NCBI GenBank assembly: GCA_002269645.1
Contig: NIVC01001525.1
Location: forward strand, 209,925-273,924
Direction of reading: 5' to 3'
Length of the DNA stretch: 64,000 bases
Source: Macrostomum lignano
Taxonomy: Eukaryota
The translations under genes and the position numbers were made by a program. This document shows, piece by piece, positions 12,140 to 54,149 of this stretch. The notes beneath the pieces were generated by a model. That model saw only the letters and a program-made list of their open reading frames with translations. It had not been told where the DNA came from and ran no database searches. Every line of letters begins with the position of its first letter. Within the stretch, counting starts at the first letter, position 1.

Positions 12140-12940
12140 TTAAAGTAAAATTCTTTTCTCCTTATTAATCATGACAAACTGATAGGGTTGGTTCCACTTT
12201 TCATAGCATATGTTAACAAATTCCTCCTGTGATATTGTTCTGTTAGAGTTCTTAGCTGGATATGTAATGTGAGCTGGGGCAATGACCTCATTATAAAATC
12301 GTTTCAGTCGATCTTGTGGTATGGTTGGGAAAAGGAGAATCAAATTACAGTTACCTCTAATTGTTTTATTCGGCAGTTCAAACCAGTTTTGGGCAATGTA
12401 AATAACATTGCAATTATTATGTCTACCCCGGGTGAAATAATTTTCTATCTGTTTCTGGGGACCGGTCATGCAGTCATCAAAGACAATCAGGTGCTTTCTC
12501 CCCTTTTCTAGTTCATCAGGTTGAGGTAAGAGTTTAGTTTTAGGATCTATCTGTGGATCTCCATAAGTGAAAACTTTAATGTTTTGCCATTTTTCATTGT
12601 CTGGGATGTGCTTTGCGTATTCAGTGGCTACAACTTCCGGGTTGCTGTTGAGGTCTTTTTGATGTCTAAAACATTGAATAATATCTTCCTTGTTGAGTTT
12701 GTTCTGTAGGCCCGCTACTAGCATTTTATACTCATCTTGATACAGAGTGGGTGAATAGATATGTAGTGTGTCATAATCGAGGAATCCAGGTCTGAGGAGC
12801 ATGTTAAAAACTCTGAAGGTTTTCCCTGACCCAGATGAGCCAACAACAATGCATCGGAAGTGCCCTGGAATTATCTCGTTGTGAGCAAATTTTATCTGAT
12901 TGCGTGTCCAGTGGGGACGAAAGTCGTTTGTGAAGTCCAT
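12140..12940 (-). CDS. A32-like genome-packaging ATPase
   Basis: Walker A GSSGSGKT, Walker B LIVFDD and the FTRGRH...IAQ motif. Confidence 0.95.
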   Translation of the reverse strand: MDFTNDFRPHWTRNQIKFAHNEIIPGHFRCIVVGSSGSGKTFRVFNMLLRPGFLDYDTLHIYSPTLYQDEYKMLVAGLQNKLNKEDIIQCFRHQKDLNSNPEVVATEYAKHIPDNEKWQNIKVFTYGDPQIDPKTKLLPQPDELEKGRKHLIVFDDCMTGPQKQIENYFTRGRHNNCNVIYIAQNWFELPNKTIRGNCNLILLFPTIPQDRLKRFYNEVIAPAHITYPAKNSNRTISQEEFVNICYEKWNQPYQFVMINKEKRILL

Positions 12941-12992
12941 TTTTTTATGTAAAAAAACTTTTTCTTTTTAAACTTGTGTATTTAAGACGCGT

Positions 12993-14078
12993 GTGTCTTT
13001 TTTCGGGTTGTGTGTGTCTTTTTTTCGGGATGCGGCTCGTGCTAACGTTGACAAGCATGATGCGGATGTGGCTCTGATCAGTAACTTTTGGGCGTACATG
13101 TTCAAGGAGTTTAGTGTATCGAATGGGAGCACTGAGTTGGAGCGAATCGCCAACTTTGGAATTGTCTATGACGCTCATTGTTTGATCGAGAATCCTGATT
13201 TTATTCAGTTGGGAAGTGGTGCGGGTTTTATTGCAGATGAAAAAGAAGGAGACATCAATGACAGTGGCTATAAAAATAGGAAGAAGAGATACAACTATGC
13301 ATTGCAAGGTGCTGATGATGCTGCTAAGAACCCGCAGTATCGGTCTGTTGATGTATTTGTACCACTGAGATTCATGAGTGGATTCTGTAATACATTTAAT
13401 CGACTGACTAGTAACTTTAGCTACACATTTAGACTGACTAGAGATGATCGCAGTAGAGTGTTGTGGACTGGGGCGGACCACACTGGGATGGCTGTGAAGC
13501 TAACCGGAATCGAGCTGTATTTGGAAGTCATTGAGCCAAAGACCGCACTAAAAGCAGACTATCTTAAGGCAATAGAGAAGGACATTGATGTTGCATACAC
13601 GGCCTACATGTGTCGAGATGAGCGAAACGAAACTAGAACAAACATCTGCATCAAAGAGGGATCATGCAGCAATCCAAGGTATATCATTATTAACATGAGA
13701 AACCCAAATAGCATTATACGCTACATGCATGGAGACGTGCGGTCCATTCAGCATGAAATCAGTGATAATCTTTACCCTGCACTGCCACAAAATGGAGATT
13801 TCAGTCAGAACAAGATTAGCAAATTTTACAACGAGTTGGTCGACTTGGCTGTGAAAGAGAACAATGGAATTGCTATCACTGCTCTTCAATATGGAACTCT
13901 ATATCCAATGTTTGGAGCTGATGTGTCTGCCAGACAAATGCCTACTGATAACAGCCCTGTGAATATCGTGACTAACATTGAGAGGACTACCGCAACACCC
14001 GTGGACTTGTACATTATCTATGCATTTGAGAGGAAGGTGAAGCTTAACATGATCAACAATTCATCCAGTAAAGTTTAA
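12993..14078 (+). CDS. Major capsid protein (double jelly-roll); N-terminus probably lost
   Basis: NFWAYMF..F, FVPLRFMSGFC and LYPMFGADVS-type motifs; divergent from the ATPase and upstream of the penton; no A-run ATG start. Confidence 0.8.
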   Translation: MSFFGLCVSFFRDAARANVDKHDADVALISNFWAYMFKEFSVSNGSTELERIANFGIVYDAHCLIENPDFIQLGSGAGFIADEKEGDINDSGYKNRKKRYNYALQGADDAAKNPQYRSVDVFVPLRFMSGFCNTFNRLTSNFSYTFRLTRDDRSRVLWTGADHTGMAVKLTGIELYLEVIEPKTALKADYLKAIEKDIDVAYTAYMCRDERNETRTNICIKEGSCSNPRYIIINMRNPNSIIRYMHGDVRSIQHEISDNLYPALPQNGDFSQNKISKFYNELVDLAVKENNGIAITALQYGTLYPMFGADVSARQMPTDNSPVNIVTNIERTTATPVDLYIIYAFERKVKLNMINNSSSKV

Positions 14079-14101
14079 ATATTTTTTTGTGGGTGAAAAA
14101 A

Positions 14102-14953
14102 ATGGAAGCCATAGCCGAAAGACTAAACAACATTGTTTCACACTCCAAGGAGAGCATTCCTATTACAATAACTGGGCGAATTAATGACTCAAACGGGATG
14201 TTTGTTGAAATCCAGGATTTGGATCCAGGCGCTAATTACCATGTCTATCTTAACGACTTCACTGGTTGGTCAAACGTTCCCAATGTGATGGCAGCAAATA
14301 ATAAGTTTTATTACAAATGGAAAGGTGCAGCAGCAGACCCTGTGGTATTCCATGTGAGCACGCAAAGTGTGGATACCTACAATAACTTTCTAGAAAATGT
14401 CTTTACTAAGAGAGGCCATTTTGAGACACCTGATGCGAGTAAGCCAGAGAAGAAACTGTTCCCTGTCAAACTAACCTATGATCTCACTGTAATGAGAGTG
14501 GTCATGCAAGTTCACAAAGATGCGGAGGTTGAGTTTAAAGATGACACTTGGTATAGGGAACTGGGATTCGAGAAGAAAGTTTATAAGGCAGAATCCGCGG
14601 CGCGGACCGCCACTCAAGCATCGGGGACCGTTAAAATGGTCCGGGAAAGTGTAAGCGGTTTGTTCTTAGCACCCAATATTGCAGACATTGTAAAGGGTTT
14701 GAATATTCTAATCAGAAGCAATCTCAGTCTTGATTGGGTATTTAAGGGAAAGCGAACGAATATTTTGTACAACATCTCCAACTCTGTTGCTGGAGGACAG
14801 ATGGTGGTAGAGAAACCAAATCCAGTGAAAAGAGTTGTATTGAGTAATAAGGAGATTCACGAGATTGTGCTACAGTTTGAGACTGAAGATGGGGTGGGTG
14901 TTGATTTCAACGGTGAAGAGTTTGTGTTGACGTTGATCATTGAGAGAATGTGA
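14102..14953 (+). CDS. Minor capsid (penton) protein
   Basis: C-terminal ILYNI...GGQMVVEKPNP...EIVLQFETEDGVGVDFNGEEFVLTLII pattern typical of Polinton pentons. Confidence 0.85.
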   Translation: MEAIAERLNNIVSHSKESIPITITGRINDSNGMFVEIQDLDPGANYHVYLNDFTGWSNVPNVMAANNKFYYKWKGAAADPVVFHVSTQSVDTYNNFLENVFTKRGHFETPDASKPEKKLFPVKLTYDLTVMRVVMQVHKDAEVEFKDDTWYRELGFEKKVYKAESAARTATQASGTVKMVRESVSGLFLAPNIADIVKGLNILIRSNLSLDWVFKGKRTNILYNISNSVAGGQMVVEKPNPVKRVVLSNKEIHEIVLQFETEDGVGVDFNGEEFVLTLIIERM

Positions 14954-15574
14954 GAAAATGTGTTCCCTTTTAAGTACGCTTGCCGAGAATAGAGTGGTAT
15001 GAAAAAATGCGCGCATGTGTACTCAAAATCTCTTACCCCATTCTGACAGTTTGTGGGCGTGGGCGTCGCGTGTGTGGGGGAGAGGGGAGTGTATGTGTGT
15101 GGGCGCAGCGCGCGTTGGGGAGAGAGATTTTCACTTTAACTGAGCCCAGCCGAGGAAGAATTTCCTTGATTGATATTGGCCTTCGCTTCTCTTCTCTCCA
15201 CACAAGTGTACAGTCTTGAGCACACTGGTTTCGGCTACAATTTCTCTTTCCACCATGCCCTTCTCCTTCATACTCCTCACCTCGCGCTATGCTCTGTGTA
15301 CAGAGAAGTCTCACGCCTCATGCTCTATCGTACACTGAGCTATATCGATTGTTTTTCCCTGCTTGACTCCAAGATTGTACAGTCTAGAATTTTCTGGAAT
15401 TTTCTAGCTGTATAGCTGTATTTAAGCAAATGCAGAAACACTCGGGTTGATTCTCCCCGCATATGCCATCAACTGCGACTGAGAAACGACGACTGCAGGA
15501 ACTTAAGCACGCTGAAAGTGATCTAAGAAATAGTCCGCCAAACTAGAAGATTAGAAGACAAGAAGATTTAGAAA

Positions 15575-16252
15575 ATGGAAGTCGAGTGGAAGCTTCATTT
15601 GACAGATAAGCAAGGCCTTTGTGCCATGCTACAAAGAGTTTTACAGGATATTCCGTCACATCTACAAGCAAGAAGAAGAGAGGAACTAACCACCTTTTTC
15701 GGTCTAGAAACTGGCGACCTACCAATCGAGTTTTTCGCCATGGCCCCTGATGATATCGCCGCAGCGAATGAAGCGCAAAATGTGAGTAGCGAAGAGAAGA
15801 AGGCGGCGGCTCTGCAGAAGAAGATGGCGGATCTGCAGATATTCAGGGAGAAGTTGTACGCATCCCGCGTAACACTAGCTGATCAGCTGATGGACGCTGT
15901 TGATCACCAGCTTCCATCTGGCGAGCAGAACATCATCACTAGGGTGAAGGCGGCTCTAGCAAAATACAAGAAGACTCAAATTGGAGGTCTACATTGGATT
16001 CTCGAAGTTGGGCGGCTGCTAAAAACTTATCGCAACGAGAACTTTGGACAAGATGTTAAAGTGCGGTTCGCCCATTTGTGTAAAAATGTAAACATCCAGG
16101 AATCAACTGGCTATTTGTACATTCGTCTGTACAAACTGTCTGTTACCCACCCAGGCTTGAGACAGGTGTCAATGCCAATTAGGGAACTAAACTCTAAGAT
16201 GAAGTTTCTAGAAGAAATTTTGGCCAGTGATCCTGCGTGGAAAGTTGTGTAA
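15575..16252 (+). CDS. Polinton accessory ORF, 225 aa, helical
   Basis: Intact ORF with coding-like composition; no motif confidently recognised. Confidence 0.6.
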   Translation: MEVEWKLHLTDKQGLCAMLQRVLQDIPSHLQARRREELTTFFGLETGDLPIEFFAMAPDDIAAANEAQNVSSEEKKAAALQKKMADLQIFREKLYASRVTLADQLMDAVDHQLPSGEQNIITRVKAALAKYKKTQIGGLHWILEVGRLLKTYRNENFGQDVKVRFAHLCKNVNIQESTGYLYIRLYKLSVTHPGLRQVSMPIRELNSKMKFLEEILASDPAWKVV

Positions 16253-16269
16253 TTTTTAAATTCAGTTCA

Positions 16270-16865
16270 TTTAGAATTTTTCTAACGCGTTAGAATTTCA
16301 AAGAGAAGATTCAACAACTGGAGACAGCCGATTGGTTAAGTAGAGGAGGGTAGCAATTTTCTCAGTACTGTGTGCAACTCAGTCGGTGGGTTTTAAATTC
16401 TAAAGCTGTTAGAAATTTCTATGTGAAAAGTTTCCCGCAAGATAAGCTTGGGCACACCAAATTTTCACATAGAAAATTCTAACGCGTTAGAGAATCTAGC
16501 TGCTGGCTCAAAGGAACGCTAGGCTGGCTCTGTATGGTTAAATAGAGGGGGGGTAGAAATTTTCTAACGCCGTTAGAATTTTCTATGTGAAAAGCTTCCC
16601 GCATGATAAGCTTGGCACACCAAATTTTCACATAGAAAATTCTAACGCGTTAGAGAATCTAGCTGCTGGCTCAAAGGAACGCTAGGCTGGCTCTGTATGG
16701 TTAAATAGAGGGGGGTAGAAATTTTCTAACGCCGTTAGAATTTTCTATGTGAAAAGCTTCCCGCATGATAAGCTTGGCACACCAAATTTTCACATAGAAA
16801 ATTCTAACGGCGTTAGAGAATCTAGCTGCTGGCTCAAAGGAACGCTAGGCTGGCTCTGTATGTTG
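16270..16865. repeat. 162-163-bp tandem repeat with internal palindromes
   Basis: Unit marker ATTTTCACATAGAAAATTCTAACG recurs at 16461, 16624 and 16786; degenerate copies upstream. Confidence 0.9.
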
Positions 16866-17032
16866 TTGAAGAATTCTAACTCAGATCCTACATAGTGTCT
16901 GTTTTTTCTACCATTTTTGATAATCTTGTAATAGTTGATACATATCCTATCAGCTGTGCAACCGTTAATAAATATATAATTCTTACTAATGAATGATAAA
17001 ATTATTTACATTTTTTCAATGGGTAAGGACCT

Positions 17033-17375
17033 TGCGCTGATGATTTAAAGTCTTAGGGATCTGGTAGCACGTTGTGGATTGAATGTGGGGAGAAGAATGC
17101 AGATTTTTTTCTGATTGTTTCGAAGATGCTATGGGTGGATTTGGAGCTGTTATGCTCAGAGCATAAACCCTCAGAGCATAACAGTAGGACACCTGTTATG
17201 CTCTGATTCTGTCAGGGATAATATGGATGGATTTAATGGGATTATGGAGGACGTTTTGTGAGCGAGTGCGACCCCCCTTTTTTTCTGATTCTGTCAGGGA
17301 TAATATGGATGGATTTAATGGGATTATGGAGGACGTGAAAAATTTTGTCCCAGAAGCCCCCTCATGCCTTCTACT
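17033..17375 (-). repeat. Right terminal inverted repeat (343 bp, includes a 53-bp internal duplication plus a 29-bp spacer)
   Basis: Direct repeats at 17202-17254 and 17284-17336; the left TIR has only one copy. Confidence 0.93.
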
Positions 17376-17396
17376 AAAACAAAAACGAAATAAAAT

Positions 17397-20300
17397 ATGA
17401 GCCTACTGCAATCTTTAGATATTCGGCAAAGCGTGCTCGCCCTGTGCGATATTCTCGGATCTTCTCAGTCAAAGCGTAACAAAATAGCCAGACCTGTCGA
17501 GGCGTGCCCAATTCTGAGACTCACACCGCCAACGACTTCCGACAGCCAAGACGCCAACTGTGAGATCTTGATTGCCAGTCTGGAAGCTGAGGATTCTGAA
17601 GACACGACCGGATCGAATCAAACTCCATATGCCGTGGTGTCTTCATTGCACTCGGTAAAAGTCACCTTCACGGGCTTACCGAATTTAAGCGAGCGATTCA
17701 GTGCAACTTTTCCCCCAGTGCTCAGTGATCTGTGCAGACTTGTATCGCAACTGATTAAAGTGACTGGAGTCCAGCAGCTCAGGATTCAAGTCGATCCAAG
17801 CACTGCTGACCGAATACTCAAATCATCAGTCCAACCGCAGCTGCTTGATGACGTTTCAATCAGGCATTTCCTGTCATCCGCTTTTGTGTTCTGCCATCTA
17901 CTGAGGGTCCTGGGAGAAACCCGTCTCGAGTCACTTTTGAACCTGAATGCTGGCGATGCGCTGGTGACGATCGGAGATCAGCCCCAATGCTCGATGAGAG
18001 TCGCTGTGAGTTCCTGCTTAAACGGAGAAGATGGAGCAGTCAATGAAGAGTTGGAGCATTGCATCGCTGAGAGCTCAAAGCGTTCTACGCCAGTTTATCT
18101 GTGCATTCTGTTCAACGAGATCAGGACCTGCAAATGGTACCTGAGGACCAGAAAAGAAGTTGAATGTCAACGTAAGCGGTTGCCCAACCATGACGTGACT
18201 CGAATTCGAGTGGAATCGGATTCTGGCCTGAAAATCCGAGTTATTCTATTCGATGTTCAACAAGGAGAATGCTATCAGGACACAGGAGCTCTGCCAGCGG
18301 AACAGGTACTAAGCGAGTTCAGCGATGACCAGTTTCTGTGTGCTGCGGTTTCCAAGTGTGAGCAGCTGGCTCAGGAGCACTCGTTTCAGCTGGAGTGCTT
18401 CACGGTGCCCTGCCGAAACACCGCTCACATGCTGCAGGCAGCAGCAAAAGTGTAAGACAGTTTTAAAAGTGCGCAATGTCAGTTTATGTTAGTGGTGACA
18501 AAATGAACTTATATGGAATTTGCGTCACATTTCAGAGCTCAGGAAGCCCAAAAGCAGAGTGCTGAGGCAGCATCGCCAGCACATGTAAGTGGTCACAGAA
18601 CAGCACAATGCTGTTGCATGTAATTGTCATGAGGGGCTTTCAGGACGCAATTTTCAACTTTCCAGAAGTGGGAGGTCGATTTGAGAAAGTCCTCCAGCTA
18701 GGTACCCTTAAATGTTACGGTACGGTGTAATCTACCAATAATCTACTTGTACAAGAAATACACAATAAAATATCTTTCTGAACGCTTGCAAGAAAACAGT
18801 AGCAGAATCAATTTTTTACGAGTAACTCAAGCAAATTTATTTAAATTCCTAATTTACTGTCATAATCATTACAATTACTGTATGCTTTGAAACTACATCT
18901 ACTCGAACGTACGGTAGGTACCCTTCTGACGTCTCCCTCTAATCGAGCTGAGTCGGCGTCAGGACACACGGACTCTCTTTCCCCTCTATGCAACCGAAAG
19001 AAAGAAGGCAGAGTGCGCACTTACTCAGCTGGCGGCTGTCGCTTAGGGATGGTGCAGTAGGTGGCCTTTTTGGTATATTTCCTTTTCAGGTAGTACGACC
19101 GTAACTTCGGCTGTACTAGGTATAGCGCTGACGGAATGCAGGGTTCTAAGAGAGGGGGTAGCCGGGCCACGCACCGCTCCAACCCGCCGCGAGCGATGCT
19201 AAATAGCACACGCCCACGGAGGGGGGAGGGCCACGCGCTCTCCACCCCACTACCCACTACCCCACCAACCCCGCAGTCACCCCCCCCCGGGGACGGCAGC
19301 ACCAAGCCCGCCGCCGGCTCAGCCAATCACTACACGACTGGGCTGGCCGCGACCAATCGCACGCGAGGCGAGCGAACAAATACCAAAAGACCAAACCGAC
19401 TTCAGCCTCTAACTGCGGCATACGCAAGGGGGGGGATAACAAAAAATAGTTGAGGGGTGACTCAGCCCGCTGGGAGGCTAGGTGCACTGGCACTGTGAAA
19501 GTGCACAGCGCAACATCTACGAGTAGTAAGCTTCGAGCGCCTGATAAATGTATTCGGTGCGATAATTTCCCGAACTCTTGCATGACTGGGTGCATGCCTT
19601 CTTACAAAGATACCTAAATTTTAAATAAGGCTCATGCTGTTTACAATAGAAGCCTGGATAGACGACAGGAAATATTTTTGTTCCTATTTTTTGTAATGTT
19701 GTTCTCAAAGTGATTCATTGATACGCGCGTAGATTAAGTAAGTAAGCATACAAAATTACGAGCTATGAAGTTAGAAGATATTCAAAGTAAGTCGGCCCAT
19801 CATTCTTTATTTTAATAGGAACATTACAGATTCTGTCCTGTCCTGAAACTCCCTCATGAAAACTAATATTAATAAAAATTTTGCCATACAGCCAGTTAAG
19901 ATAATAACATTAATTTGATAAAAATATGGTACACAATAATCTTTGCAGACTCCCGGAGCTCCACATTAATATTAAGGTTAATTTCCACACGAGGCCAGAA
20001 CTCTTGCATATAGCTCGAATTTTAAATGAGGCTCGTGCTGAAAACTGCTAGCCATAATAATTTTACCATAGCCAGTTAAAGTACAAAAATTTGATATAAA
20101 TATGCTTCACAATAAACTTTACAGACTCCCGGAGCTCTGCATCATCTCGCAGCCACCGGAGATGCATCACTGCTCGCTCAAATCCTTGAAGCCGATCCGT
20201 CAGTACTGCAAGACCCACACAAATCGTTTCCTCATCGCACGGCCCTTCTCTGTGCCGCAGCAGCCTCAGTCGCGGACTTCTCTCAAGGCTCCGAGGCTCA

Positions 20301-21193
20301 TGCCGAGTGTTTCGAAATCCTCATCAGCAGAGGAGCTGATCCGCAAGCTGCGGACAGCCGGAAGCACTCTGTCTGGCACTGCGCCATACTCTCACACAAC
20401 ATTCCTCTGCTAAACACTTTGCTGGCGAACCACAGGGCAGACATCAACAGCGCAGATGGAAGCTGCAAGACGCCGTTGCTGCTGGCAGTAGAAGAGGAGA
20501 ATGCTCCGGTAGCAGAGATGTTGTTGGACAACGGGGCCAACTCTCAGCTCACTGACAAGGCCGGTCAGTCTGCCCTGACCATGGCTGTTTCTGCTGGAAA
20601 CCTGGAGCTGGTGAAGACTGTTCTGAAGCATGAGCCGGAGATTCTGCGTGACAGCGGTGCTGAGAAATACGCCAGCATCTACTGGTCTGCGTGGAAGCAG
20701 GGCTACGAAGACATCTGCTTGCATCTTCTGCAGTGAGTAGAAATACCTGAAATAATCAGGCATAATAGTAAGACAAAACTCAATATTATTTGCGACGCGT
20801 TTCGGCTAAAACTAGCCATCTTCAGGCACTATCGAACAGAATTTATTTCAACTTATTAAATACTGTGTAGACGACAAAATCAGGTATTGAAAAGATATAA
20901 AAGGACTAAAGGATCAATGTACAGTATAGCAATTTTCATAATATTTGTTTGTGGAAACACGAAACTCTCCGATTCAGGAACATTTGCTGCAATGCCATGG
21001 TTGTTGTGATGAGCCAGACATAACCTCTCATTTCAAGGTCATAGACAACAGCAAAAATGAGCATAAACTTAACATTCTTGAAGCTCTGCACATTAAGTTA
21101 CACAAACCCATTCTCAATGTCCAACTATCTGGAGGAGGTGCGAGTGAACGGCTGTTGGTGTTCTAAGCTAGAGTACATTTGGGGCGCATACGC

Positions 21194-21252
<59 letters not shown>

Positions 21253-24200
21253 CTCTGTCCTGTCATTCCACAAACAAATATTATGAACATTGCTATACTG
21301 TACATTGATCCTTTAGTCCTTTTATATCTTTTCAATACCTGATTTTGTCGTCTACACAGTATTTAATAAGTTGAAATAAATTCTGTTCGATAGTGCCTGA
21401 AGATGGCTAGTTTTAGCCGAAACGCGTCGCAAATAATATTGAGTTTTGTCTTACTATTATCTGTTAAGAGTGCTTCTCTACCGCAATCAGGCATAAGGTC
21501 TGCGAGCCAAAATACATGTAAACCTACGAGTACAAGGGGCACAGCAGCTCAGCAATAACCGCGTCTGACTCTCATGCCACGGCCCTGGTTTGATTCGCGA
21601 GGCCACATTCATGTGGGCCTCGTGCACGAATAGTTGGTCTGGGAGTTGCCGTGCGATTCACAGCCATAAGGGCCGACCCCCAGGGCACAGAGAGTTTACA
21701 TGTCTTACGATTGGGAAGTCAAGGCCGCTGTACACCTGTGTGAGCGTGTGTATGAGTGCGTGCCTGCGTACAGTATTGGCATGCTCTCAGGAGTCAGCGG
21801 AATGGGCAGAATTGCCGTCAGCGCTGGTTGCTGAGATGGTGCCTGGCATTGTACTCGTAATTATACTTTTTCCCAGACGCAATAACAAAATATTTTGGCC
21901 ATTATTCCACAGTTTTATGTGTACCATGGACATTTGGAGTGAAAAAATCCATCGCACAATATTTTTGTTAATGAATACAGAACAGCAAGGAGTAAATGAA
22001 CAAGAAGGAAAAAAATCATTAAAACTAAAGTACCAGCTACACGAAGGGGGGCCGCAGCCCAGCGGTCCAGCCAGCGACCCAGGCTCGATTCCAAGTGCAG
22101 TCACATTAATTTAGGGCTGAATTGGAATCTCGGCTTGGCTCTGCTCGTGCAATTAACGGCCTTGAGAGCCAACCCCCAAGGCGCAGTGAAGTGTACATGC
22201 CTAACGATAAAATAAAGTTAGGGCCCCTGTACACTCCTGTGTGAGGGTGTGCCTGCTTACGTATCCGCGCGCTTGTGTGCCTACTCAGGGGAGTCGGCGG
22301 AATGGGCAGTAATGCCTCTCGCCGGTTGTGTGCCTATGTCGCTTAAAGTGCGCCAGGGTGCACACAACCCCCCTGCCTCTAATAAAAAACCAGCTACACG
22401 AAAAGAGTTCATAATAAATGTCACAGCTAGTGCAGTTTATCAGCTTGTAGTCGAAATTTGACAATGTAAAAATCAATTTGTCACCCAAGGCCAAAGTGAA
22501 ACATGCAGTTCTCAAAGCCGCAGTTCCCAAAGATGCTCGACACTTTAGTTTGATGATTTGGCACTGCAAAAGGAGTTGGTCTATTTTGAATGTTTAATAT
22601 AAACGAGAAATACAGGTGCTCAAGTATAGTTGCCGAAATTACCATTTAAAAGATGCACGTCTTGGCTTGCGACTGACGAACTTCGTCTGATGAGCTTCTT
22701 TCGCCACGGTATCCAAGCTGGGATTCTTTGGGACTGTCGCTGCTCGACTGAATTAATTGGCCGCTTTGAGGCATCGCTTATAGCCGTCGAGGCGTTGAAG
22801 ACTGCATGGTCGCGTTTTCTTCTTAGGTAGCGCCGCACGGTTCGCTCAGTGGTCGACAGGAAGTTTTTTCCAATTAATAAGCGCTGCTGTTTGACGAGAT
22901 GCACCAGCCATAGTTGCTTGACAAGACAAATAGCTTTTTCTCGCACTACCCGCTTTCCTGATTTCTTGCAAGAGGCAAGCTAAATCAGCACTCATCACAA
23001 TGTTTGATTGTATAGAATGCAACTGAGTTGAATAATGGCCAATCAATTAAATTGCATACTATACAAGTGCATTGTATTTATACTTTCACTCAGCGCGCAG
23101 TCATTATTCCACACTTGTGAGGCCATCATTCCACACTTTTTGTCGCAGTCATTATTCATTATTCCACACTTTTTTATCATGCTTCAATTGGCTGTTTTAA
23201 GAGTTATTTCACCCATAGACAACTGAGTTTTGTGTCTTAGTTTGCCCATAGACAACATTGCGCTAGGGTACGAAAGCCCTATTCAAAATACTTTTAAAAA
23301 TGCTTAACAACATCTATTTAGCGTCAATACAATAAAATGACGACTGGGTGAAATAACTGGTAACTAGATCAGGTATTTTGGCCACTTTAATTAGATACCC
23401 ATTTAAAATATTTAATAGTTTGATACAATCAAATATACTTCGTATTCTTGCCATTTAGCACCCTTCAAAACAGAATTATGGTTTAAACAAAACATTTCAG
23501 AGAGAAATTTGAATTGAACGAGCACTCCATTACGGTAAGAAAACATTTCTGTTGCCGAGAAAGCGAATAAAAACCACAGATGGTCATCTAAAAATTTGCC
23601 ATAAAATTTTTTAGGAAGCCAAGAAGCTGAACTGCCTCATCAGCCAAGCTAGGCAGAAGGAATTTACAAAAGCCGTCAGCAAAGAGAACTGCAACTGGAG
23701 AGACTGGGAGGGAAGAACTCCTCTCCAGGTGGCTTCCAGTGGAGGCTTGCGACCGTCTAGAAAATGTCACCTCAAGTGCGCAGAGCTGCTGCTCCAGCTG
23801 GGTGCGGATCTCAACGCTGCGGATCTGGAGGGAAATACGCCTCTGCACTTGGCTGCTGCTGCTGGCAACACGGAAGTCGTTGAGCTTTTCCTCAGATACG
23901 GTGCATCCCGCGATAAGAGGAACTTTTCGGATGCCACTCCGCTGAATGCGGCAGAGAGCAAAGGACACTCGGAAGTGGTCGCAGTGCTGGCAAGGGCGGA
24001 GACACCAAGCGTGAGGTGAGATGAAATTTTTGTTAATATAGTTTAGAATATGTTCTGATGGACAACTATCGGCTGTTAGGTTTTAAGATAAAAATCAGGT
24101 TGTTAAACACTTGAAAATCAATTCTAAGCTAGCTGTCTCTGATCAATAAGGAACTGCAGGGCCTGTTCTGTCCAACTTCTCTCCAAATTACAGTATTTTC

Positions 24201-27200
24201 CAAGCTTTAGAATTGTATACACTATCCATCACTGCACATCGCACTTATTTGTGAAAGTTGCGGATCGAACCCAAGTTTCTGGAAGTTGAGCGTAGGGTTT
24301 TGCTCCAAACTCCCTAAATCTTAAAAGAGGGAAAATGCTGGCTAGCAATGAAGACTGCAACAATTTTTTCCGGCATTCGCACTTGACTGACTGCTTCGCT
24401 TCATTTCCATGTGCTTCCTCCAGTTTTCCACTTTCTGTCAAAATGCCTGCATTTCACAAGCGAACTTTGGAAATGGCTAATGATGTGTACCAACTTGCAT
24501 GTACCAACTTCACTTCCTCACCTCGCTTTCATTCACGCATTCCAGAAAACAACAGCACACCCACACAACCGCTCAAAACCGCTCAATGTGAGTCTCATTC
24601 TCCTTGGCCCACTCTGCAAATATGCACTGTGATCTGTCACTCTGGACCGGGACCGCCCTTTTTCTCCCTCCTTCTTTCTCCCTTTTTCTTTCTCCCTCCC
24701 TCCACTCATTCTCCCTTCCGTCTCGCTGTCCTCTTTTTCCCTCCGCTCTTTCTCCTTTTCGCCTTAGTGCCTTTCTCCTTTTTTTCTCACTTTTAATTTT
24801 TTTTCATCCATACCGCTCTTCAGAAAAATGGGCGAAAATCAAAACCGACATCAGCAAGAGACCATTGAAAACATTACTGCTGCTGCACGCAATGGCCGCT
24901 TTCAAGACGTCAAGAATTTCCTCTCACAAATCAATGACCAATCAAACAGGGACACCTGCTGCATCAAAGCTGCCGAAGGAGCTGCATTCAATGGTCACTT
25001 TGAAGTCGTCAAGTTTCTCCTCCCACAAATCAATGACCAATCAAACAGGGACACCTGCTGCATCAAAGCTGCCGAAAATGCTGCAAACAATGGTCACTTT
25101 GAAATCGTCAAGTTTCTCCTCTCACAAATCAATGACCAATCAAACAGGGACACCTGCTGCATCAAAGCTGCCGAAGATGCTGCAATTCGTGGTCACTTTG
25201 AAATCGTCAAGTTTCTCGTCCCACAAATCAATGACCAATCAAACAGGGACACCTGCTGCATCAAAGCTGCTGAAGGAGCTGCATTCAATGGTCACTTTGA
25301 AATCGTCAAGTTTCTCGTCCCACAAATCAATGACCAATCAAACAGGGACACCTGCTGCATCAAAGCTGCTGAAGGAGCTGCATTCAATGGTCACTTTGAA
25401 ATCGTCGAGTTTCTCGTCGCGTGTCTCTCAAGTGACGATCTAAAAGCGAAGCTCCGTTTCCAATGCGCACTTACCGCTTGCTCTCGTCTTCACGAAAATG
25501 TCGTTGCCTCCCTCGGCCTCGAGCCCCAATGGCTCTTCCAATCGAACACCATCCTCAGCTTCACTGCAGCGATGGCCATCGAAAGCAGGAACTCTGTTCT
25601 CAACGACACCCTCTCTCGAATGCAGCCAGCTCAAATCACACAGCTGCTCCGTCTCTCCATCTCTCAAAGAAACGTCACTCTTGCCGCCACACTGCTCAAT
25701 CATGAGCGATTCAGCACACAGCACGTCGATCTCCCAGACGACAACACCGGAGCCACCGCTCTCATGCTCGCAGCTGATGCTGGTCAGCACGAACTCATTC
25801 ACAAACTCATCGATCTCGGCGCCTCACTGCACGCTCAAGACACTCACGGTCGCACTGCACTGTCACGAGCCTGCCAAGCCGGTCACGTGCGAGCAGCCAA
25901 GACTCTCATCGACAATGGAGCCGATGCCAGCCATCGAGACAGTCAAGGCCTCACGTGTGCGCAGCTCGCACAGCGATTTGAGCAGCGGCAGGTGCTGCGG
26001 CTGCTAAATCCCACCGAGTCAGTTGCCATTTGTCCCATTACTTGCAATTACTTCGCTACCTTACCTCGCTTTCCTTCACACATTCCAGAAAAACACAGCA
26101 CTGCCAGCCAGCCGCTCACCGCCTCCATCCGTGAGTCTGACTGTCTTTCTCCCTTGGGCCACTGGAATTTTTAAATCCGCCTCCACTGACTCCACTCTCA
26201 CCTCTCCACCCAGACTCTCACACCACTCAGAGCAGCACCTCAGCGAGGAGCTGCATCGACTGCTCAGCGATGCGGGATTCACCGAGCAGAGAGCAAAGTA
26301 TCTGAAAAACCTGGCTGACTGGCTACAAGAAGTCGCTGGAGTCCTCACACAGGATCGCAGGCAAATGACCGGCAGCTACGCAGAGGGCTGGGCCAACAGT
26401 CTGGTGCAAGTCAACGGCAGGACAGCTGCAGACTCCGACATTGACTGGACTGTGCTGGTTGATGGGCAAAAGTTCCATCTGGAAGGTGGCTGTGACAGAA
26501 CAGGTTTCTGCAGCAACGACACTCCGCTCCAGGTCAAGGAGGGCCACGCACAGGTGGCAGTCGGAGCAGGTCAGTGACGCTCCGCTCATCATCAGAATGC
26601 CGCAATCCCCAATCCAAGCCCCCGTAAACTTTGCTCAATTTTTTAGTAATTAACTGAACTTCAGAGCTCACAAGTTCAACCTGAGTTTGAGACCTGACTG
26701 AAATACCTTTCAGCACTCATTTTGCTTTGAATAAAAATTCTGGCAACCAATCAGTCAACTCAAGTCCCTGCAATTCAACTGCCTCACCACCTCAGAGGTT
26801 ATGAAACAATTATTAAGCAATGCCTTGCCTTCTCTTTCCCCTTAAAATATTTTTTCTCTTTCTCCGCCCATCATCAACTCCATAGCGGTGCGCCTGCATG
26901 CATTTCAACGAATACTTTGCTTCATTCACTGATTGCAGTAGTAGCACTCACACACGAACTCAACCAACTCATTCAAGCAGCTGAAAACCAACCCATCCTG
27001 TTCATTCGCCACAATGCCACTCTCTGCTCACTGCGCTTCACAGGCAGCCAACCTGCTGTGACAGCCACGGCGTGCGGTGTGCGGCCTGCACAGGACACGT
27101 GCCATGCGATCCCGTGCTGCAGCAGTTTCGGCGAGGACAGAATAAAAAAACTGCTTCAAAACAATTTAGATAAAGTCCACCTCGTTCGGGCGACCAGACC

Positions 27201-28656
27201 GAGCTCGACCAACGAGCTCAGAGTGAGCTTCAGCTTCCAAGAGAAAGACATCATGAGACAGTTGAGCACAGTCCAGGGCCAGCTGTTCACACTCATCAAG
27301 TTCATCTTCAAGAGACACTTGCCGCTCACTCTGGACACACCTGGACTCAAGACCTACCATGCAAAGACTCTGCTATTCTTCATGCTGGAGAGGCATGGCA
27401 CAGATCCTGAAACTGAGGCTTGGCAGCAGCAAAATCTGATCGCTCTGCTCAACGAGTCTCTCGACATGATGCTGAGCTTCATCGACTTGAGTAGCTCGCC
27501 CGATGAGTGCATGTCGCACTTCTTTATGCCCGATGCTCCGCTCTACTTCAAGAACGCTGGAATCGGCGGCGACTTCGACAACACGAAGGCGAGGGTTCGA
27601 GACCGACTTTGTGAGCTGAGAAGCGACATCGGCGGAGTGGTCGAGCAGCTGAGGAGACTCGTGAGACCTCTGCAGTCAGAGAAGTTCTACTTTCACCTGT
27701 TCACTCTGCTGCCTCTGACAGCGCCGCCTGCTGTCACGGAGATCAGGGAAGGAACTTGGAATCCAGAAATGTACTACAAGTTCGCAGACGTGTACAGTGT
27801 GGTGCACCAGTGTTTGAGCGAGCTGCAGTCGGAATCGAGCGACAGAGACACCCTGATGAGGCAGCTCAGTCTCCTGCATGAGCTGCAGTGGTGCAAGTGC
27901 GCCGCCCTGTGCATGACCGCCATGGCACATTTGAAGTTCGGAGAATCTGAGGAGGCTGAGAGACTCGCGATGGAGCTGTACAGACATCAGGTTGAGTCAG
28001 GGTTAAAGCCACAGGATATTCGATATGAATATATCCAAACTAAATCGCCAGCAGACTCAGACTGGGCGTGGAGGTTCTGCCTCCCCTGCGACTCTCCGCC
28101 TCGCTTCCCATTCCTTCCCGAGTTCACGCAGACTCTGTTCACAGCCAGACTGTCGCAGCCTCTCTCCTCCCACCTGTACGTGAACTTCCGCTGCCTGAGC
28201 TGGAGTCTCCAAGCTGAGCTGCTCCGCAATCGCACACCTGCAATCGCATTCGATCATTGGATTGAACAGCTGCTTGGAGACCCGGACTTGGAGGAGCTGC
28301 TCACTCTGGCTCACTACAGCGACTGCCGCGAGCACGTGGAGCTCAGCCTGCAGCAGATGGAGATGATCGAGAAAGAGAGACGCGTCGCCATGGAAACGCA
28401 GGACGAGGAGAAGATCGGCTGGGTCAGGCAGAAGCGGTGGCGAGTTTCGAACCGCAGCGGCAGCGACAGCGGCGCTCACCGCAGCAGGGAAGATGAGGAG
28501 CGGAGGCTGTGGGCGAGGGCGAGGCTGCGGCGAGACGGGGCCGACTCGGGTCGCCTGGTTGCCATGGAAACTGCAGCGGAGCAGAGAGACAGCTGGACTC
28601 ACGCCAAGCTCACGTCGCAAAGTCGAGATCGGAAAAGGAAGGCTGAGTCAGACTGA
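17397..28656 (+). CDS. Spliced gene of about 1788 aa: unknown N-terminal domain + ankyrin repeats + cGAS/Mab-21 nucleotidyltransferase. Exons 17397-18451, 18536-18584, 20125-20732, 21491-21497, 23615-24015, 24546-24587, 24824-26017, 26089-26130, 26214-26569, 27044-28656
   Basis: All introns are GT-AG with matching phases; the exons total 5367 nt (1789 codons). Ankyrin motifs TPLLLA and TPLHLAA; NTase GSYAEG...[28 protein letters not shown]. The 3' linkage (23615 onward) is stronger than the 5' linkage via the 7-nt exon. Confidence 0.72.
18620..19866. mobile_element. Degenerate TIR element (about 630 bp net) related to the Polinton terminus, carrying an ORF1 relic
   Basis: 26-bp imperfect IRs (21/26) at 18620-18645 and 19841-19866; ORF1-like peptide on the minus strand; second copy starts near 53609. 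Confidence 0.55.
18903..19512. mobile_element. Unclassified 610-bp insertion with 8-bp TSD ACATCTAC
   Basis: TSD at 18895-18902 and 19513-19520; the paralogous site near 53901 lacks it; no TIR and no poly(A). Confidence 0.8.
20791..20828 (-). ncRNA. Second copy of the minimal hammerhead ribozyme (inverted arm)
   Basis: Exact reverse complement of 21394-21431. Confidence 0.85.
21394..21431 (+). ncRNA. Minimal type I hammerhead ribozyme (Penelope-associated)
   Basis: CTGAAGA (21397-21403), stem II GGCTA/TAGCC, GAAA, palindromic ACGCGT, GTC cleavage triplet, short stem I TGC/GCA. Confidence 0.85.
21536..21848 (+). mobile_element. tRNA-derived SINE, family 2
   Basis: tRNA-like head (AGCTCAG A-box, GGTTTGATTC B-box-like); central segment shared with the 22046 SINE; no clear TSD. 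Confidence 0.55.
22046..22388 (+). mobile_element. tRNA-derived SINE, family 1, with 14-bp TSD
   Basis: GGGGCCGCAGCCCAGCGGT head, GGCTCGATTCC B-box, AATAAAAAA tail, TSD ACCAGCTACACGAA (22032-22045 and 22389-22402). Confidence 0.88.
22620..22946 (-). pseudogene. Possible degenerate Tc1/mariner-like HTH fragment
   Basis: Only the S..ERTVRRYL pattern; no TIR or TSD found. Confidence 0.2.
24880..25410 (+). repeat. Five near-identical 99-bp (33-aa) ankyrin repeats
   Basis: CAAATCAATGACCAATC at 24927, 25026, 25125, 25224 and 25323. Confidence 0.95.
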
Positions 28657-33184: not shown

Positions 33185-34368
33185 TGTGATTAGCATGCAC
33201 GATAAGCAATAAATTAGGCCCTAGACAAACCTATTTTTGGAGCGTTCAGAGATTTTTTTAAACTATTGGCCCTATTGCCTATCGCCGGTCGGCGAGTTCT
33301 ACCAATCTTTCTCCAATAGTCGCAGTACGGTTCAAGCAAAGGAAGAACACAGGTGAAACCGATTCGAATAGATTTAGAGAGTGATAATCCTAGCAAGAAT
33401 GACCAAGTTTGATTGACTCGACGATTTAATTAGATTCAATAAAGTTACAAGATTCTTTAACGTAATTCGCGGCGCAGATAATTCGAACTGATGATAACAA
33501 ACCAATAATAACGATACAACAATTAATAATAGTAAATTAATTACGCAACTGGCAAGCGGATCTCAGCTTGAAGAAGAAGAAGAAGAAACCGACACGGGAC
33601 CACGGAGAAAGACCACTGGCCTAACCCAGAACCTACACTCAAACGAGAGCCCTGACGAACCGACTGTTCAGCGGAGCACTAACTAAGTTCTATCAGCGCT
33701 GCCCTTCAGTGCGACACTGAGGCCATCGGGATCGAGGCCACGTACTTGGTCAAATCCGTCAGTCTCTATCTAGACCGCGCTTAATAGCGACAACTTCAGA
33801 CACTGATGCCGTATCGTTACGCTACGAGACTGAAGCGGTCGGGCAGGGAGTGAAACACGGACCGGGGGTGATGAAATCGGGCGCCTCAAAGCGCGAAACC
33901 AAAATAGGGCAAAACGGCCGGGAAGTTGAGCAAAACCAAGGGCCAAAAGCAGGAGAGAAGGGGAAGGGTGAGATCCGATCGCCAAACACACTTTCATTTA
34001 TGGTCATTGTCAGACCCCTCACAACCCCCCTCAAGCCGGGTGGTGGTAGTCTGGCCGGCCGCTCGCCAAGCTGAATTGCACTGTGCCGCGGCGCCGGGTA
34101 GAGTCATATTTTGCCGCGTGCCAGGGTCCTGGCCGATTCTGATTGGCTGGCCGCGCAAAGCCGGGGTTTGCAGAAACTTCAACCCTCCGCTGAGTCACAA
34201 ATGGCGTCTGACTTCTACCCTGTTTACGCAAAAAATTAGACTCTAACTAACAAGAAAAAAGTACATTGAAAACGCGTGACTAAATTAAAGCAAAATAATA
34301 ATTATCAACAATATTACAGAAAATAACTAATAGAATACAAAACTATCGCAAAAGATGCTCACACTACA
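33185..34368. mobile_element. Diverged LTR of the same family, without TSD
   Basis: TGTGAT...CACTACA ends, collinear with 818-2012; flanks CGCC and GTGC differ. Confidence 0.8.
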
Positions 34369-39369: not shown

Positions 39370-40580
39370 CTATTGAAAAAATTCAGACCTGTCAATCAGA
39401 GCATCCATGATATCGGCGGGAGCACCAGCCTGGCCTTCATGCCGCATGAAGTCAACGAGATTTCTACTCCGTCTAGCGGCATTATTTCGGAAAAAATTCT
39501 GTTCGAAGCTGGACAGTCCGTACCGAAGTTCGAAGAACATATTGGCTGCCACCAAAGTGACAACTGCCAGCTCCATCTCCGACTCATCAAAGCCTTCATC
39601 ATCTGAATTGCTAATTGGAAATGAATCCCTTGGCATCCATTTTTCGAAAACTTCTTCCGGCGTTGCTTTGCGCTCGCACTCACAAGAATCTCCCAAGAAC
39701 ACTCGGTAGTCAGTAGTAGCCATTGACTGCCTGACTGTGATTTGCTGGAGCGGATTCTCAGTGCAGTGCCGACAGTCGCAGTTGTGCAGCAGCACGTTTT
39801 CACCCTCCAGATATCTCACAAAATTCGCAGTCCAGAATTGTCGTCGTGTCGAGTCCCAGACATCGTCCCTTCTTGGGTTTCCGTTGTGTTGGCCGGTTGC
39901 AAACTTGACACTTTTTACAGACACGTTCGTCATCTGGGGCCCGTCATGTACAGCAAAATGGAACTTTTCGAGATCCCAGCAACTGTACTTGAAGTCTTCA
40001 CCGATGCACCCCTTCTCAAAGCACAGGCCGTTTAGGGCCACGTAATTTCTAATGAAGGAAGCAAAATTATTTTGGCTGTTGGTGCTGCTGCTGAAAAACA
40101 TCTCAAGAAAGCAAGGAATTTCAATTGCTGCAGTGGCGTGAGCTGGGTGATAGCGGTATGAGAAATACTCATGGATATCTGAGACGGTCAGGTAAAGGAT
40201 GGCCGACTTAAATAGCTCGTAGCTCACCGGTATGTCCACTGACACACCTTCGTTCATCCAGGTGCACAGACATCGCTCACCCATTCCTGCCGGTATTTGA
40301 CCCTGGTTTCTTCTAATTATTAGCCTCCCGAACACTCTGCGCCCTTCACCTTGTTGTTCTGACGTCACAGCCCTAAAAAGTCTTGCCAGCTTCTCGTGAA
40401 GCTGATAAAATGGTTCTCCTGCATTCGTCTCGTAGGTGAGGACGACCCTCAAAGCCAGACTGCGTTTTAGGTTTGGGTCGTTTCTAAACTGGACGTTTTG
40501 CATCAGGGCTTCAATCTCCGAGACAGCTTTTTAGTCAGTATTTCCTCAAATACTCGTAGTTCATAGTTGTCACGGTCCAT
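39370..40580 (-). CDS. Copy B of the uncharacterised neighbour gene (377-aa ORF from 40503; ATG 40580 is offset by a 1-nt frameshift near 40530)
   Basis: Long intronless ORF with Cys/His clusters (HNCDCRHC, SCECE); alignment with copy A shows the missing base in a homopolymer run. Confidence 0.65.
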
Positions 40581-42814: not shown

Positions 42815-43563
42815 GTAAGTGGTCACAGAGCAGCATAATCCCGCTGTGCCGACAGCCGTCGATTCGAGGGGTGTGTGTTTACCGTCGATTCGATTTTGAG
42901 CCTTTCCGGGCTTTAATGGGTCGATTCGACGGCAAACAGTCGACGTGTTTTCGACGCTTATTCGACATGTATTCGACAACCTCTCCCCTGATTCTACATG
43001 CATTTGACATCTAATATCGGTTGATATTACATACATGCATGTATATGTAAATATGTGGCTTATATTTTTGTAGGCCTTGATCGTGACAGAAACAGAATAA
43101 TTCATAGTAGCTAATGGCACATTCTATAACATCTGAAACAAATAAATGTAAGAAATTGTTTATAGATTTTCAGTCATTGTAAGTTGTAACAAAGTGCAAA
43201 GCAAATTTTCATGCTAACAGCAACAGGTTTGCTTAGGTCCAGAGCAACATGTATTTGCAAGTTAAAATGACAATTGGCACAAATTATACCATAATTAAAT
43301 TTGCACTTTGAATAACAAAAAAGTGCTTAGCAACATCTATTAAAGGTGCCAACCAAAAGGTTCAATGCCAGTCCAGGTTTAATTTTTGCTATTGCTCAGC
43401 TCAGGTTTTTCATGTCCATAGTCAGTCCTGCTGTTTAGCAACCAGCGTGACTCCTTGTAGCTAGCACACACCTCTCACTCCTTGTAGCCTTTACTTGATT
43501 AGCTGTTATGAAGCTAGCTGAAATGTGTTTAAAAAGGAAATCTATAGATATAATTACAAAATA

Positions 43564-53197: not shown

Positions 53198-54149
53198 TCG
53201 TTAAAGCAGAACATTAATAATTTGCAAAACATTAACAAAGTAGACAATTCGCACAAAGACATTTTACAGGAAAAACACATTCAATTAAATTTGTTGAATA
53301 AACATGGCTTTATTGTTTCAAAAAAGTTACTTCGTGTCACGCAGATTCATTACTTTTTTTCACACTGTAATTGTCGAATTAGCAAAAATTTTTTGATATG
53401 ACTTTGATGTCGAAAAATCGAACTCTAGTCGATGGAAATTCAAAACCCGAAAACTAGCTTTAAAAGTTACTGTACTATATTTTTCACTGATTTAATTTAA
53501 ACATAATCCAACCAGTTTAATGACAAATTAACGATTTTTCAATTTCGATGCAAATTCGAAACCATCCCCTCGATTCGAAAGCTCCCTGCACAGCGGGAAT
53601 GCTTTTGTAGTACTTGTCATGAGGAGCTTTCAGGACGCAATTTTCAACTTTCCAGAAGGGGAGTCGATTTGAGAAAGTCCTCCAGCTAGGTACCCTTAAA
53701 TTTTACGGTATAAGGTCTAATCTACAAGTAAATGTACCAATATAATTTACCCGCATAAGAAATACACATTAAATATATATCTTTCGAGAAAACAGTAGCA
53801 GCATGAATATTCATACGAGTAACTAAGGTAAATTTATATAAATTTCTAATTTACTGTCATCATCACCATTACTCCATGCTTTGAAAATATACATCTACGA
53901 GTAGTACATGTAAGCTTCGAGCACCTAATAAATGTATTCGGTGCGATAATTTCCTGAACTCTTGCATGTACTGGGTGCATGCCTTCTTATAAAGATACTT
54001 AAATTTTTAATGAGGCTGTAGCAGAGCACTCAATATAGTTCAAATGAAAAGAAAGAAATAATGGTGACTCAATTGAACTATTAAATTTATTATTAATAAT
54101 TCTAGGTAATTTATTTAGTTGTAGAACTTGACAAATAATAATATAACTC

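What the first reader, a model, noticed from the sequence alone, without database searches (positions are those of the whole stretch)
18620..19866. Candidate non-autonomous mini-Polinton: only termini plus ORF1
Seen: 26-bp imperfect inverted repeats bracket about 630 bp once the 610-bp nested insert and its TSD are removed. The paralogous end at 53609 reads AGTACTTGTCATGAGGAGCTTTCAGGACGCAATTTT, versus Polinton AGTAGAAGGCATGAGGGGGCTTCTGGGACAAAATTTT. Inside lies [27 protein letters not shown], versus Polinton ORF1 FPVVSPGSYYKAHEPNYKSKYQCKVEC, with the same AAAA context and ATG>ATA (19675). Inference: an old MITE-like satellite of a related Polinton lineage, so this locus was colonised twice. No TSD survives.
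Basis: partly seen in the sequence, partly recalled or inferred. Interest (0 to 1): 0.75.

Follow-up and report, generated by a model that had tools for sequence, protein, structure and literature searches.

The report
Shrunken Polinton virus relic in intron
An old virus-like Polinton element has been whittled down to its two ends and one small gene and lies dead in an intron of an animal gene; nothing found so far shows that it ever spread as a miniature parasite of its own, so it is most likely an ordinary fossil.

Summary
A 26-bp inverted repeat (18621-18646 / 19840-19865) brackets 631 bp once a 610-bp insert and one 8-bp duplication are discounted. Both ends resemble the terminus of the 14-kb Polinton next door, and a broken relative of that Polinton's orphan 80-aa ORF1 fills the interior. 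The arms seem to be decayed ~190-bp TIRs (62-65% alike; weak support). Synonymous excess against the Polinton's ORF1 points to a sister lineage. The relic sits in an intron of an ankyrin gene and predates a segmental duplication and the big Polinton, so two colonisations are supported. 'MITE-like satellite' is not shown. The 53609 copy is the segmental duplicate with the same flank. A second ORF1 piece outside the right end is a local tandem duplication. No TSD survives, and contigs of three of the four runs laid show no sign of an amplified family at 80% likeness or more. That test cannot see siblings as decayed as this copy, and no genome was available. Best reading: a one-off or low-copy deletion derivative (0.55). 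An old family mobilised in trans stays open (0.33). Polinton remnants are common and N-named Polintons are already catalogued.

The parts
18619..18810 (+). Distal arm: decayed terminal inverted repeat, about 190 bp; best-kept part 18621-18646; inner edge approximate
   Evidence: whole-arm global likeness to the other arm 65%; inner part reached by 7 of 3000 shuffles (global) but 1019 of 3000 (local)
19676..19867 (-). ORF1-proximal arm, 192 bp from terminus to ORF1 start position (301 bp in the big Polinton)
   Evidence: leader likeness to Polinton 3600-3634
19513..19675 (-). ORF1 relic, 5' part (aa 1 to about 52): ATA at the start position, frame breaks after about aa 30, cut by the insert
   Evidence: tblastn E 1e-7; 0 of 1000 shuffles for aa 1-30, but aa 31 onward not significant alone, 428 of 1000; frames
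18810..18902 (-). ORF1 relic, 3' part (about aa 53-80), frameshifted, with stops
   Evidence: DNA likeness reached by 60 of 3000 shuffles (copy A) and 28 of 3000 (copy B); not significant as protein, 125 of 1000
18903..19512 (.). Nested 610-bp repeat fragment with exact 8-bp TSD (18895-18902, 19513-19520); unclassified, apparently high-copy, cut short at its left end
   Evidence: TSD; no terminal repeats of its own; summed depth far above the arms, loose ends at 18907, empty-site joints in 3 of 4 runs; no Rfam match near a gathering score
19953..20049 (-). Second ORF1 piece (aa about 14-50, internally deleted) plus the last bases of the right end: part of a local tandem duplication
   Evidence: tblastn E 6e-5; 0 of 1000 shuffles and pairwise alignments
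19857..20137 (+). Tandem pair 19857-19961 / 20039-20137 (16% mismatch) that duplicates the element's last bases, the intron end and the splice acceptor (extra AG at 19948)
18585..20124 (+). Host intron (GT..AG, 1540 bp) that holds the whole relic; host gene = ORF from 17397, exon 18536-18584, ankyrin exon from 20125
   Evidence: joints 18445>18536 and 18584>20125 in contigs of run X6 (organism B); frame continuous; ankyrin repeats
53609..54017 (+). Segmental-duplicate copy B of the relic: no insert, truncated at 54017, same left flank
   Evidence: blastn 79% and 89%; flank alignment
3333..17375 (.). 14-kb Polinton/Maverick: AGTAG ends, about 290-bp TIRs 98% alike, 6-bp TSD AAAACA, empty site at 41623-41628; integrase, pPolB (in pieces), protease, ATPase, double-jelly-roll capsid
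3634..3876 (+). Polinton ORF1, 80 aa, no known relatives; begins 12 bp inside the left TIR's inner edge
   Evidence: no real relative with 28, 31, 38, 56, 59

Best explanation
It is the fossil of one old insertion of a Polinton/Maverick sister lineage, reduced to TIR + ORF1 + TIR (about 190 + 240 + 190 bp). Shown: Polinton-like ends, a full-length broken ORF1 relative between them, position in a host intron, age greater than the segmental duplication. Inferred: the interior (more than 10 kb of core genes) was lost in one deletion, either in the chromosome or during the element's protein-primed replication, where a template switch between the TIRs can give a short genome that a helper's integrase then inserts once. 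It has since decayed neutrally, had its right end duplicated in tandem, been copied with its host gene, and been hit by an unrelated repeat. It does nothing now beyond being spliced out; a younger full-size Polinton later landed 1.2 kb upstream.
For: Ends match the Polinton terminus at fixed register (0, 0, 2 of 5000 shuffles). ORF1 plus leader 65% over 134 nt, E 2.5e-10. Third-position excess 24 of 45 mismatches, p 0.004, and 14 synonymous codons against 3.3 expected. Between copies A and B: 0 synonymous and 4 non-synonymous codons of 15, one a stop. No relic of the other 13 Polinton ORFs tested outside 3333-17375. Copy B shares flank and host gene. Spliced contigs place it in an intron. In run X15 the bins 19538-19901 are flat at 9.09, the depth of one 848-nt contig that crosses the right end into the host exon. 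[quoted passage not shown]
Against: The anatomy is tidy: both arms come to about 192 bp, the distal arm seems to be a nearly whole TIR, and ORF1 fills the interior. A random chromosomal deletion need not stop at such borders. The copy-number test sees only contigs 80% alike or more, while the two arms are just 62-65% alike to each other, so equally old siblings would be missed. Bin 18628-18718 has about twice the summed depth of the next bin in X13 and X15 and about three times in X2, and 145 of 164 loose ends were not shown. Inner-arm likeness is seen by global but not local alignment.
Confidence: 0.55

Rival explanations
1. It is one member of an old non-autonomous Polinton family (a ~630-bp satellite) that kept only the TIRs and ORF1 and was replicated and integrated in trans by a helper Polinton's pPolB and integrase.
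For: Symmetric TIR-ORF1-TIR layout; both termini kept and best conserved at the outer 27-37 bp; N-named Polinton entries exist (Polinton-1N1_DR in PMC9341505; Polinton-N1A_NV in PMC11296320; that N means non-autonomous is recalled); polB-less Polintons stay mobile in insects (10.1101/2025.02.07.637071, passages).
Against: No independent copy in 64 kb; copy B is a segmental duplicate; no TSD; no raised summed depth and no listed loose end at either terminus in the 3 organism-A runs laid; no match to a 23-nt terminal motif in viral or metagenome contigs, which carry little weight for an animal repeat.
Confidence: 0.33
2. The element is a short-TIR cut-and-paste transposon derivative, or other mobile module, that shares ORF1 with the Polinton through capture; the likeness of the termini is incidental.
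For: Only about 27 bp of inverted repeat are clear, below the 100-1500 bp given for Polintons (10.1101/2023.08.22.554363, passage); unanchored terminal likeness is weak; the middle of the Polinton TIR has no detectable match in either arm (182-489 of 1000 shuffles); ORF1 is not a Polinton core gene and has no known relatives.
Against: All three ends match the Polinton terminus at fixed register; ORF1 has the same orientation relative to its end and the homology runs about 35 nt upstream into the TIR edge; the arms align end to end better than shuffles (5 of 3000 combined) while 8 of 8 control stretches do not.
Confidence: 0.07
3. The relic is a decayed piece of the same Polinton family as the neighbour (a local hop or duplication), not a second lineage.
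For: It lies only 1.2 kb from the big element and shares ORF1 and terminal motif.
Against: Differences from the neighbour's ORF1 are enriched in synonymous and third-position changes, which decay alone does not give; the relic is in both segmental copies while the neighbour's site is empty in copy B; neighbour TIRs are 98% alike, relic arms 62-65%.
Confidence: 0.05

Closest known systems
Polinton/Maverick genomic fossils and remnants (vertebrate defective Mavericks; C. elegans eri-6/7 Polinton remnants)
   Same: Polinton-type ends, eroded genes, low copy number, more than one Polinton insertion at one host locus (PMC8097293; 10.1101/2024.01.15.575659; passages only).
   Different: Much shorter, keeps both ends and only an accessory orphan ORF rather than pPolB or integrase pieces; no effect on the host gene shown.
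Non-autonomous Polintons (Polinton-1N1_DR, Polinton-N1A_NV; polB-less insect Polintons)
   Same: Polinton ends without polymerase or integrase; could only move with a helper.
   Different: Those are catalogued families or shown to be mobile; here no independent copy or TSD is shown. Polinton-N1A_NV still encodes a capsid protein (PMC11296320). Their sizes and structure were not seen in the passages read.
MITEs of TIR DNA transposons
   Same: Size within 0.05-1 kb, inverted ends, no coding capacity left (PMC8969392, passages).
   Different: MITEs often reach hundreds to thousands of copies through a cut-and-paste transposase; no amplification is seen here and the helper would be a self-synthesising element.
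Copy-back / deletion-type defective viral genomes
   Same: Both termini kept, interior lost; end + first gene + inverted end is what a copy-back would give (analogy from my own knowledge).
   Different: Described mainly for RNA viruses in the listing; I saw no report for Polintons there, and nothing here separates this route from deletion in the chromosome.

Membership tests
Polinton/Maverick (autonomous) | Encodes pPolB and retroviral-like integrase, usually ATPase, protease, capsid proteins | tested here: not met
   No tblastn hit of 13 Polinton ORFs outside 3333-17375. The neighbour does carry these genes, with pPolB in pieces.
Polinton-derived element | Termini homologous to Polinton ends (5'-AG / AGT-type motif) | tested here: met
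   26, 26 and 22 of 37 at fixed register, 0, 0 and 2 of 5000 shuffles; three of the four end copies differ from the neighbour's first five bases at one position, the fourth at two; weak when unanchored. End motifs: PMC8097293.
Polinton-derived element | Long TIRs (100-1500 bp) | tested here: inconclusive
   26 bp clear; about 190 bp suggested by global alignment (7 and 25 of 3000 shuffles; local 1019 and 984 of 3000).
Polinton-derived element | 6-bp target-site duplication | tested here: inconclusive
   None found: best 3/6 unshifted, 4/6 over 49 shifts, 4 flank pairs; at this age decay could have erased one.
Polinton-derived element | Interior homologous to a Polinton | tested here: met
   ORF1 and leader, E 2.5e-10.
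Non-autonomous Polinton family / MITE-like satellite | Several independent insertions with common boundaries and unrelated flanks | tested here: inconclusive
   0 independent copies in the window; none evident in contigs of 3 organism-A runs at 80% likeness or more; no genome held, so older copies could not be sought.
Non-autonomous Polinton family / MITE-like satellite | High copy number of similar, recently amplified copies | tested here: not met
   Summed depth over the arms below that of host exons in X13, X2, X15; one contig only over 19538-19901 in X15 (the tool warns that summed depth is no copy number).
Non-autonomous Polinton family / MITE-like satellite | An empty orthologous or paralogous site | tested here: inconclusive
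   Copy B carries the element; no joint skipping 18619-19867 among the 15 joints listed.
Non-autonomous Polinton family / MITE-like satellite | Mobilisation in trans by helper enzymes | not testable with these tools
   Needs population-scale insertion data.

The most novel reading that the evidence does not exclude
A ~630-bp Polinton satellite made only of two TIRs and the orphan ORF1, born as a copy-back or deletion defective genome, was replicated and integrated in trans and spread as a family. ORF1 would then be the one gene worth keeping in cis (for example a terminus-binding protein), and the element would mark out the minimal cis-acting unit for Polinton replication and integration.
Probability: 0.3. 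Interest if true: 0.55.

Novelty: new member of a known kind. Interest (0 to 1): 0.3.

Why it matters
As a fossil it is modest: it dates a layered history at one host gene (old Polinton relic, tandem duplication, segmental duplication, then three later insertions) and shows that an orphan 80-aa ORF beside the Polinton TIR is a real gene kept under selection in two lineages. If dispersed copies turn up, it would be among the smallest helper-dependent Polinton derivatives and would show which terminal bases and which accessory gene a Polinton needs in cis, a point on which I found little in print (2 papers for six phrasings).

Tried and rejected
ORF1 relatives: none in Pfam, PHROGs, the 90% protein set at near or longer lengths, viral or metagenome contigs, the ESM Atlas or earlier findings. 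The 2 hits among 1.84 billion representatives are repeat proteins whose scores add up from short repeated stretches; rejected. The integrase found no related loci in viral contigs. A 23-nt terminal motif had 0 matches in viral and metagenome contigs. Single-sequence AlphaFold of ORF1 gave mean pLDDT 54.7, three helices: too weak for a fold search, none run. Rfam on 18560-20200: 2 matches, both far below gathering score. Treating 53609 as an independent insertion: rejected. Treating the ORF1 piece at 19953-20040 as a sign that the element runs past 19867: rejected, because it lies between two copies of the host acceptor region and carries the element's last bases. Run X6 has no cover over the intron: uninformative on whether organism B has the relic. 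The insert was not scanned for protein families (one search gave no result). Kapitonov and Jurka 2006 was not available. Supplements of the papers were not read; Repbase-type tables there may list small non-autonomous Polintons.

Full report
Setting. The window is animal-type DNA with a 14-kb Polinton/Maverick at 3333-17375. It has AGTAG ends, TIRs of about 290 bp that are 98% alike, and a 6-bp TSD AAAACA. Pfam finds integrase (rve), pPolB (DNA_pol_B_2), adenoviral protease, A32 ATPase, a double-jelly-roll domain and a PLA2-like ORF among 17 ORFs scanned; the pPolB, protease and jelly-roll hits fall just under their curated cut-offs. Its pPolB region is split over several frames, so autonomy is not shown. 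An 80-aa ORF1 (3634-3876) starts just inside the left TIR. No whole genome is held, so everything below rests on the window, public read assemblies and databases.

The observation. The inverted repeat is real: the best local alignment of the two arms is 18621-18646 with the reverse complement of 19840-19865, reached by 0 of 2000 shuffles. A 20-nt terminal motif occurs 3 times in 64 kb against 0.02 expected. The insert 18903-19512 has an exact 8-bp duplication and the paralogue has one copy of it; the remainder is 631 bp. ORF1 aa 1-30 match 19675-19586 at E 1e-7. At DNA level the match is 65% over 134 nt (E 2.5e-10) and runs about 35 nt upstream into the Polinton's TIR edge. The 3' part of ORF1 can be traced beyond the insert to about 18810 at DNA level (60 and 28 of 3000 shuffles for copies A and B) but not as protein (125 and 77 of 1000). 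ORF1 is broken: ATA at the start position, frame breaks after about aa 30, the insert near aa 52, and a stop in copy B. The likeness of the ends to the Polinton terminus is strong with the register fixed by the element's own repeat (26, 26 and 22 of 37; 0, 0 and 2 of 5000 shuffles) and weak without it (2 of 150 shuffled queries reach 26 somewhere in the window; 106 to 1153 of 2000 by strict local alignment). No TSD survives.

Anatomy. The ORF1-proximal arm is 192 bp (301 bp in the neighbour) and the distal arm comes to about the same. Without their outer 30 bp the arms still align end to end better than shuffles (7 and 25 of 3000, combined 5 of 3000 with HOXD70; 36 and 24 of 1000 with simple scores), and 8 of 8 control stretches do not (lowest 69 of 500). 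Local alignment does not see this likeness. I chose the arm borders from the ORF1 ends, after seeing the data. So long decayed TIRs are likely but weakly supported; the arms are 62-65% alike. The middle of the neighbour's TIR matches neither arm. None of 13 other Polinton ORFs has a relic outside the big element.

Sister lineage, then decay. Over 42 ungapped codons, mismatches to the neighbour's ORF1 fall 8, 13 and 24 on the three codon positions (p 0.004), with 14 synonymous codons against 3.3 expected, 0 of 20000 simulations. The stretches were picked as the best protein matches and the simulation has no transition bias, so the significance is overstated. Between copies A and B, 15 codons show 0 synonymous and 4 non-synonymous changes. 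I infer that ORF1 was a selected gene while the two lineages diverged and has decayed since insertion. It has no known relatives (with 28, 31, 56, 59) and its fold model is unreliable, so its role is unknown. Its place against the TIR makes a terminus-related function a guess only.

The second copy is not a second insertion. Self-BLAST shows 1-19632 duplicated at 39515-54017 in pieces. Host sequence 17376-18609 matches 41623-42839 at 92.6%. A 10.8-kb insertion with its own short inverted ends and a 3-bp duplication then interrupts copy B (42840-53597), after which the same 11-12 bp of flank lead into the relic at 53609. Mismatch between A and B is 10.4% and 5.8% in the relic and 4.7-14.3% in host sequence, so the relic predates the duplication. 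The big Polinton's site is empty in B (single AAAACA), so it came later. Two colonisations about 1.2 kb apart are therefore supported.

Host context. Contigs of run X6 (organism B; listed as DNA by guess, but the joints look spliced) join 18445 to 18536 and 18584 to 20125, the latter GT..AG over 1540 bp. The frame runs on from the ORF at 17397 into an ankyrin exon. The relic thus lies in an intron, 34 bp after the donor. I read this as a local tandem duplication with deletions, older than the A/B split by its divergence. It keeps residues that the main copy has lost.

Copy number. Of 17 runs listed, 4 were laid on 17900-20600 at 80% likeness. In the 3 organism-A runs, summed depth over the relic bins 18628-18900 and 19538-19901 is 21-68, 115-377 and 9-31, against 98-310, 372-1522 and 42-103 over host exon bins, and 91-799, 577-5027 and 89-374 over the insert. 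The tool warns that summed depth is no copy number. More telling, in X15 bins 19538-19901 are flat at the depth of one 848-nt contig that runs through the right end into the host exon with 2 differences. None of the 19 loose ends shown (of 164) lies at a terminus, and none of 15 joints is an empty site for the relic. Against my reading: the first 90 bp of the relic have two to three times the depth of the next bin, and siblings as decayed as this copy would be near 60-65% alike and invisible at this threshold. A recent amplification is unlikely; an old family is not excluded.

Mechanism. Shown: ends, ORF1 relic, intron position, order of events. Inferred: loss of the interior by one deletion. 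Two routes fit: deletion in the chromosome after a full-size insertion, or a short genome formed during protein-primed strand-displacement replication and inserted by a helper's integrase (my own knowledge of adenovirus-type replication; not tested). The tidy TIR-ORF1-TIR layout leans toward the second route, which is also how a satellite family would begin. The absence of independent copies leans toward a one-off. I put one-off or low-copy relic at 0.55, old mobilised family at 0.33, non-Polinton carrier of ORF1 at 0.07, and same-family fragment at 0.05.

What is known. I read passages only, not whole texts or supplements. [quoted passage not shown] 10.1101/2023.08.22.554363: TIRs 100-1500 bp, TSD 5-8 bp. 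10.1101/2024.01.15.575659: Polinton remnants of four sizes and repeated insertions at one C. elegans locus, where the authors also leave open 'partial when it transposed' versus 'later deleted'. PMC3014272: no non-autonomous Polinton copies apparent in the anole. PMC9341505 and PMC11296320 name Polinton-1N1_DR and Polinton-N1A_NV; that N marks non-autonomous families is recalled. PMC5499653: Tlr1 sometimes called non-autonomous polintons. 10.1101/2025.02.07.637071: polB-less Polintons remain mobile. PMC8969392: MITE definition. PMC6431247 and PMC9341512 added nothing specific. Eight searches showed no paper on a sub-kilobase Polinton satellite in their listings; most subscription papers and Repbase are outside the library. 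One earlier AI note reports a gene-less 10.9-kb Maverick satellite in another genome (e1-7908034); I did not check it and it is no support.

Verdict. A real Polinton-derived mini-relic from a sister lineage, in a host intron; a new member of a known kind. The satellite claim is open and needs the genome. Interest 0.3; 0.55 if dispersed copies are found (probability 0.3).

Noticed in passing
window 3999-4069 and 15092-15162: The big Polinton has a second, inner pair of inverted repeats (about 56-71 bp, 89-98% alike) that brackets its core genes and leaves ORF1 on the left arm and a 225-aa ORF plus tandem palindromic repeats (16398-16862) on the right arm.
   Followed up: no
window 5600-10020: The Polinton's pPolB region is broken into many stop-free stretches in three frames although its TIRs are 98% alike and its other genes are open; mutation or assembly error not told apart.
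   Followed up: partly
window 17376-17397: The big Polinton inserted about 20 bp upstream of the ATG of the host gene whose intron holds the relic, which may cut that copy off from its promoter.
   Followed up: no
window 42840-53597: A 10.8-kb insertion in copy B with about 31-bp imperfect inverted ends (25/31) and a 3-bp AAT duplication, itself holding further repeats and a long palindrome at 52446-53197; unclassified.
   Followed up: partly
window 18903-19512: GC-rich repeat fragment with CCAAT-like boxes, 8-bp TSD, no terminal repeats; other copies in reads run on past its left end. Class unknown.
   Followed up: partly
window 19526-20135, runs X2 and X15: A contig lacks the insert, has a right part nearly identical to copy A (2 differences in X15) but a divergent left part: a third paralogue, an allele or a recombinant.
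   Followed up: no
window 19948: The tandem duplication makes a second splice acceptor 176 bp upstream of the one used in run X6; its use would bring ORF1-relic sequence (antisense) into the mRNA.
   Followed up: no
window 20762-21460: A 699-bp foldback element with 195-bp arms 99% alike around a CT microsatellite, right after the ankyrin exon; looks young.
   Followed up: no
window 818-2013, 33191-34368, 46918-48100: A 1.2-kb dispersed repeat in three copies; the first interrupts copy A of the segmental duplication.
   Followed up: no
window 24828-26174 and 27253-28656: Ankyrin-repeat ORF with 99-bp tandem units and a Mab-21 C-terminal-domain ORF nearby, a neighbourhood that suggests innate-immunity genes.
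   Followed up: no
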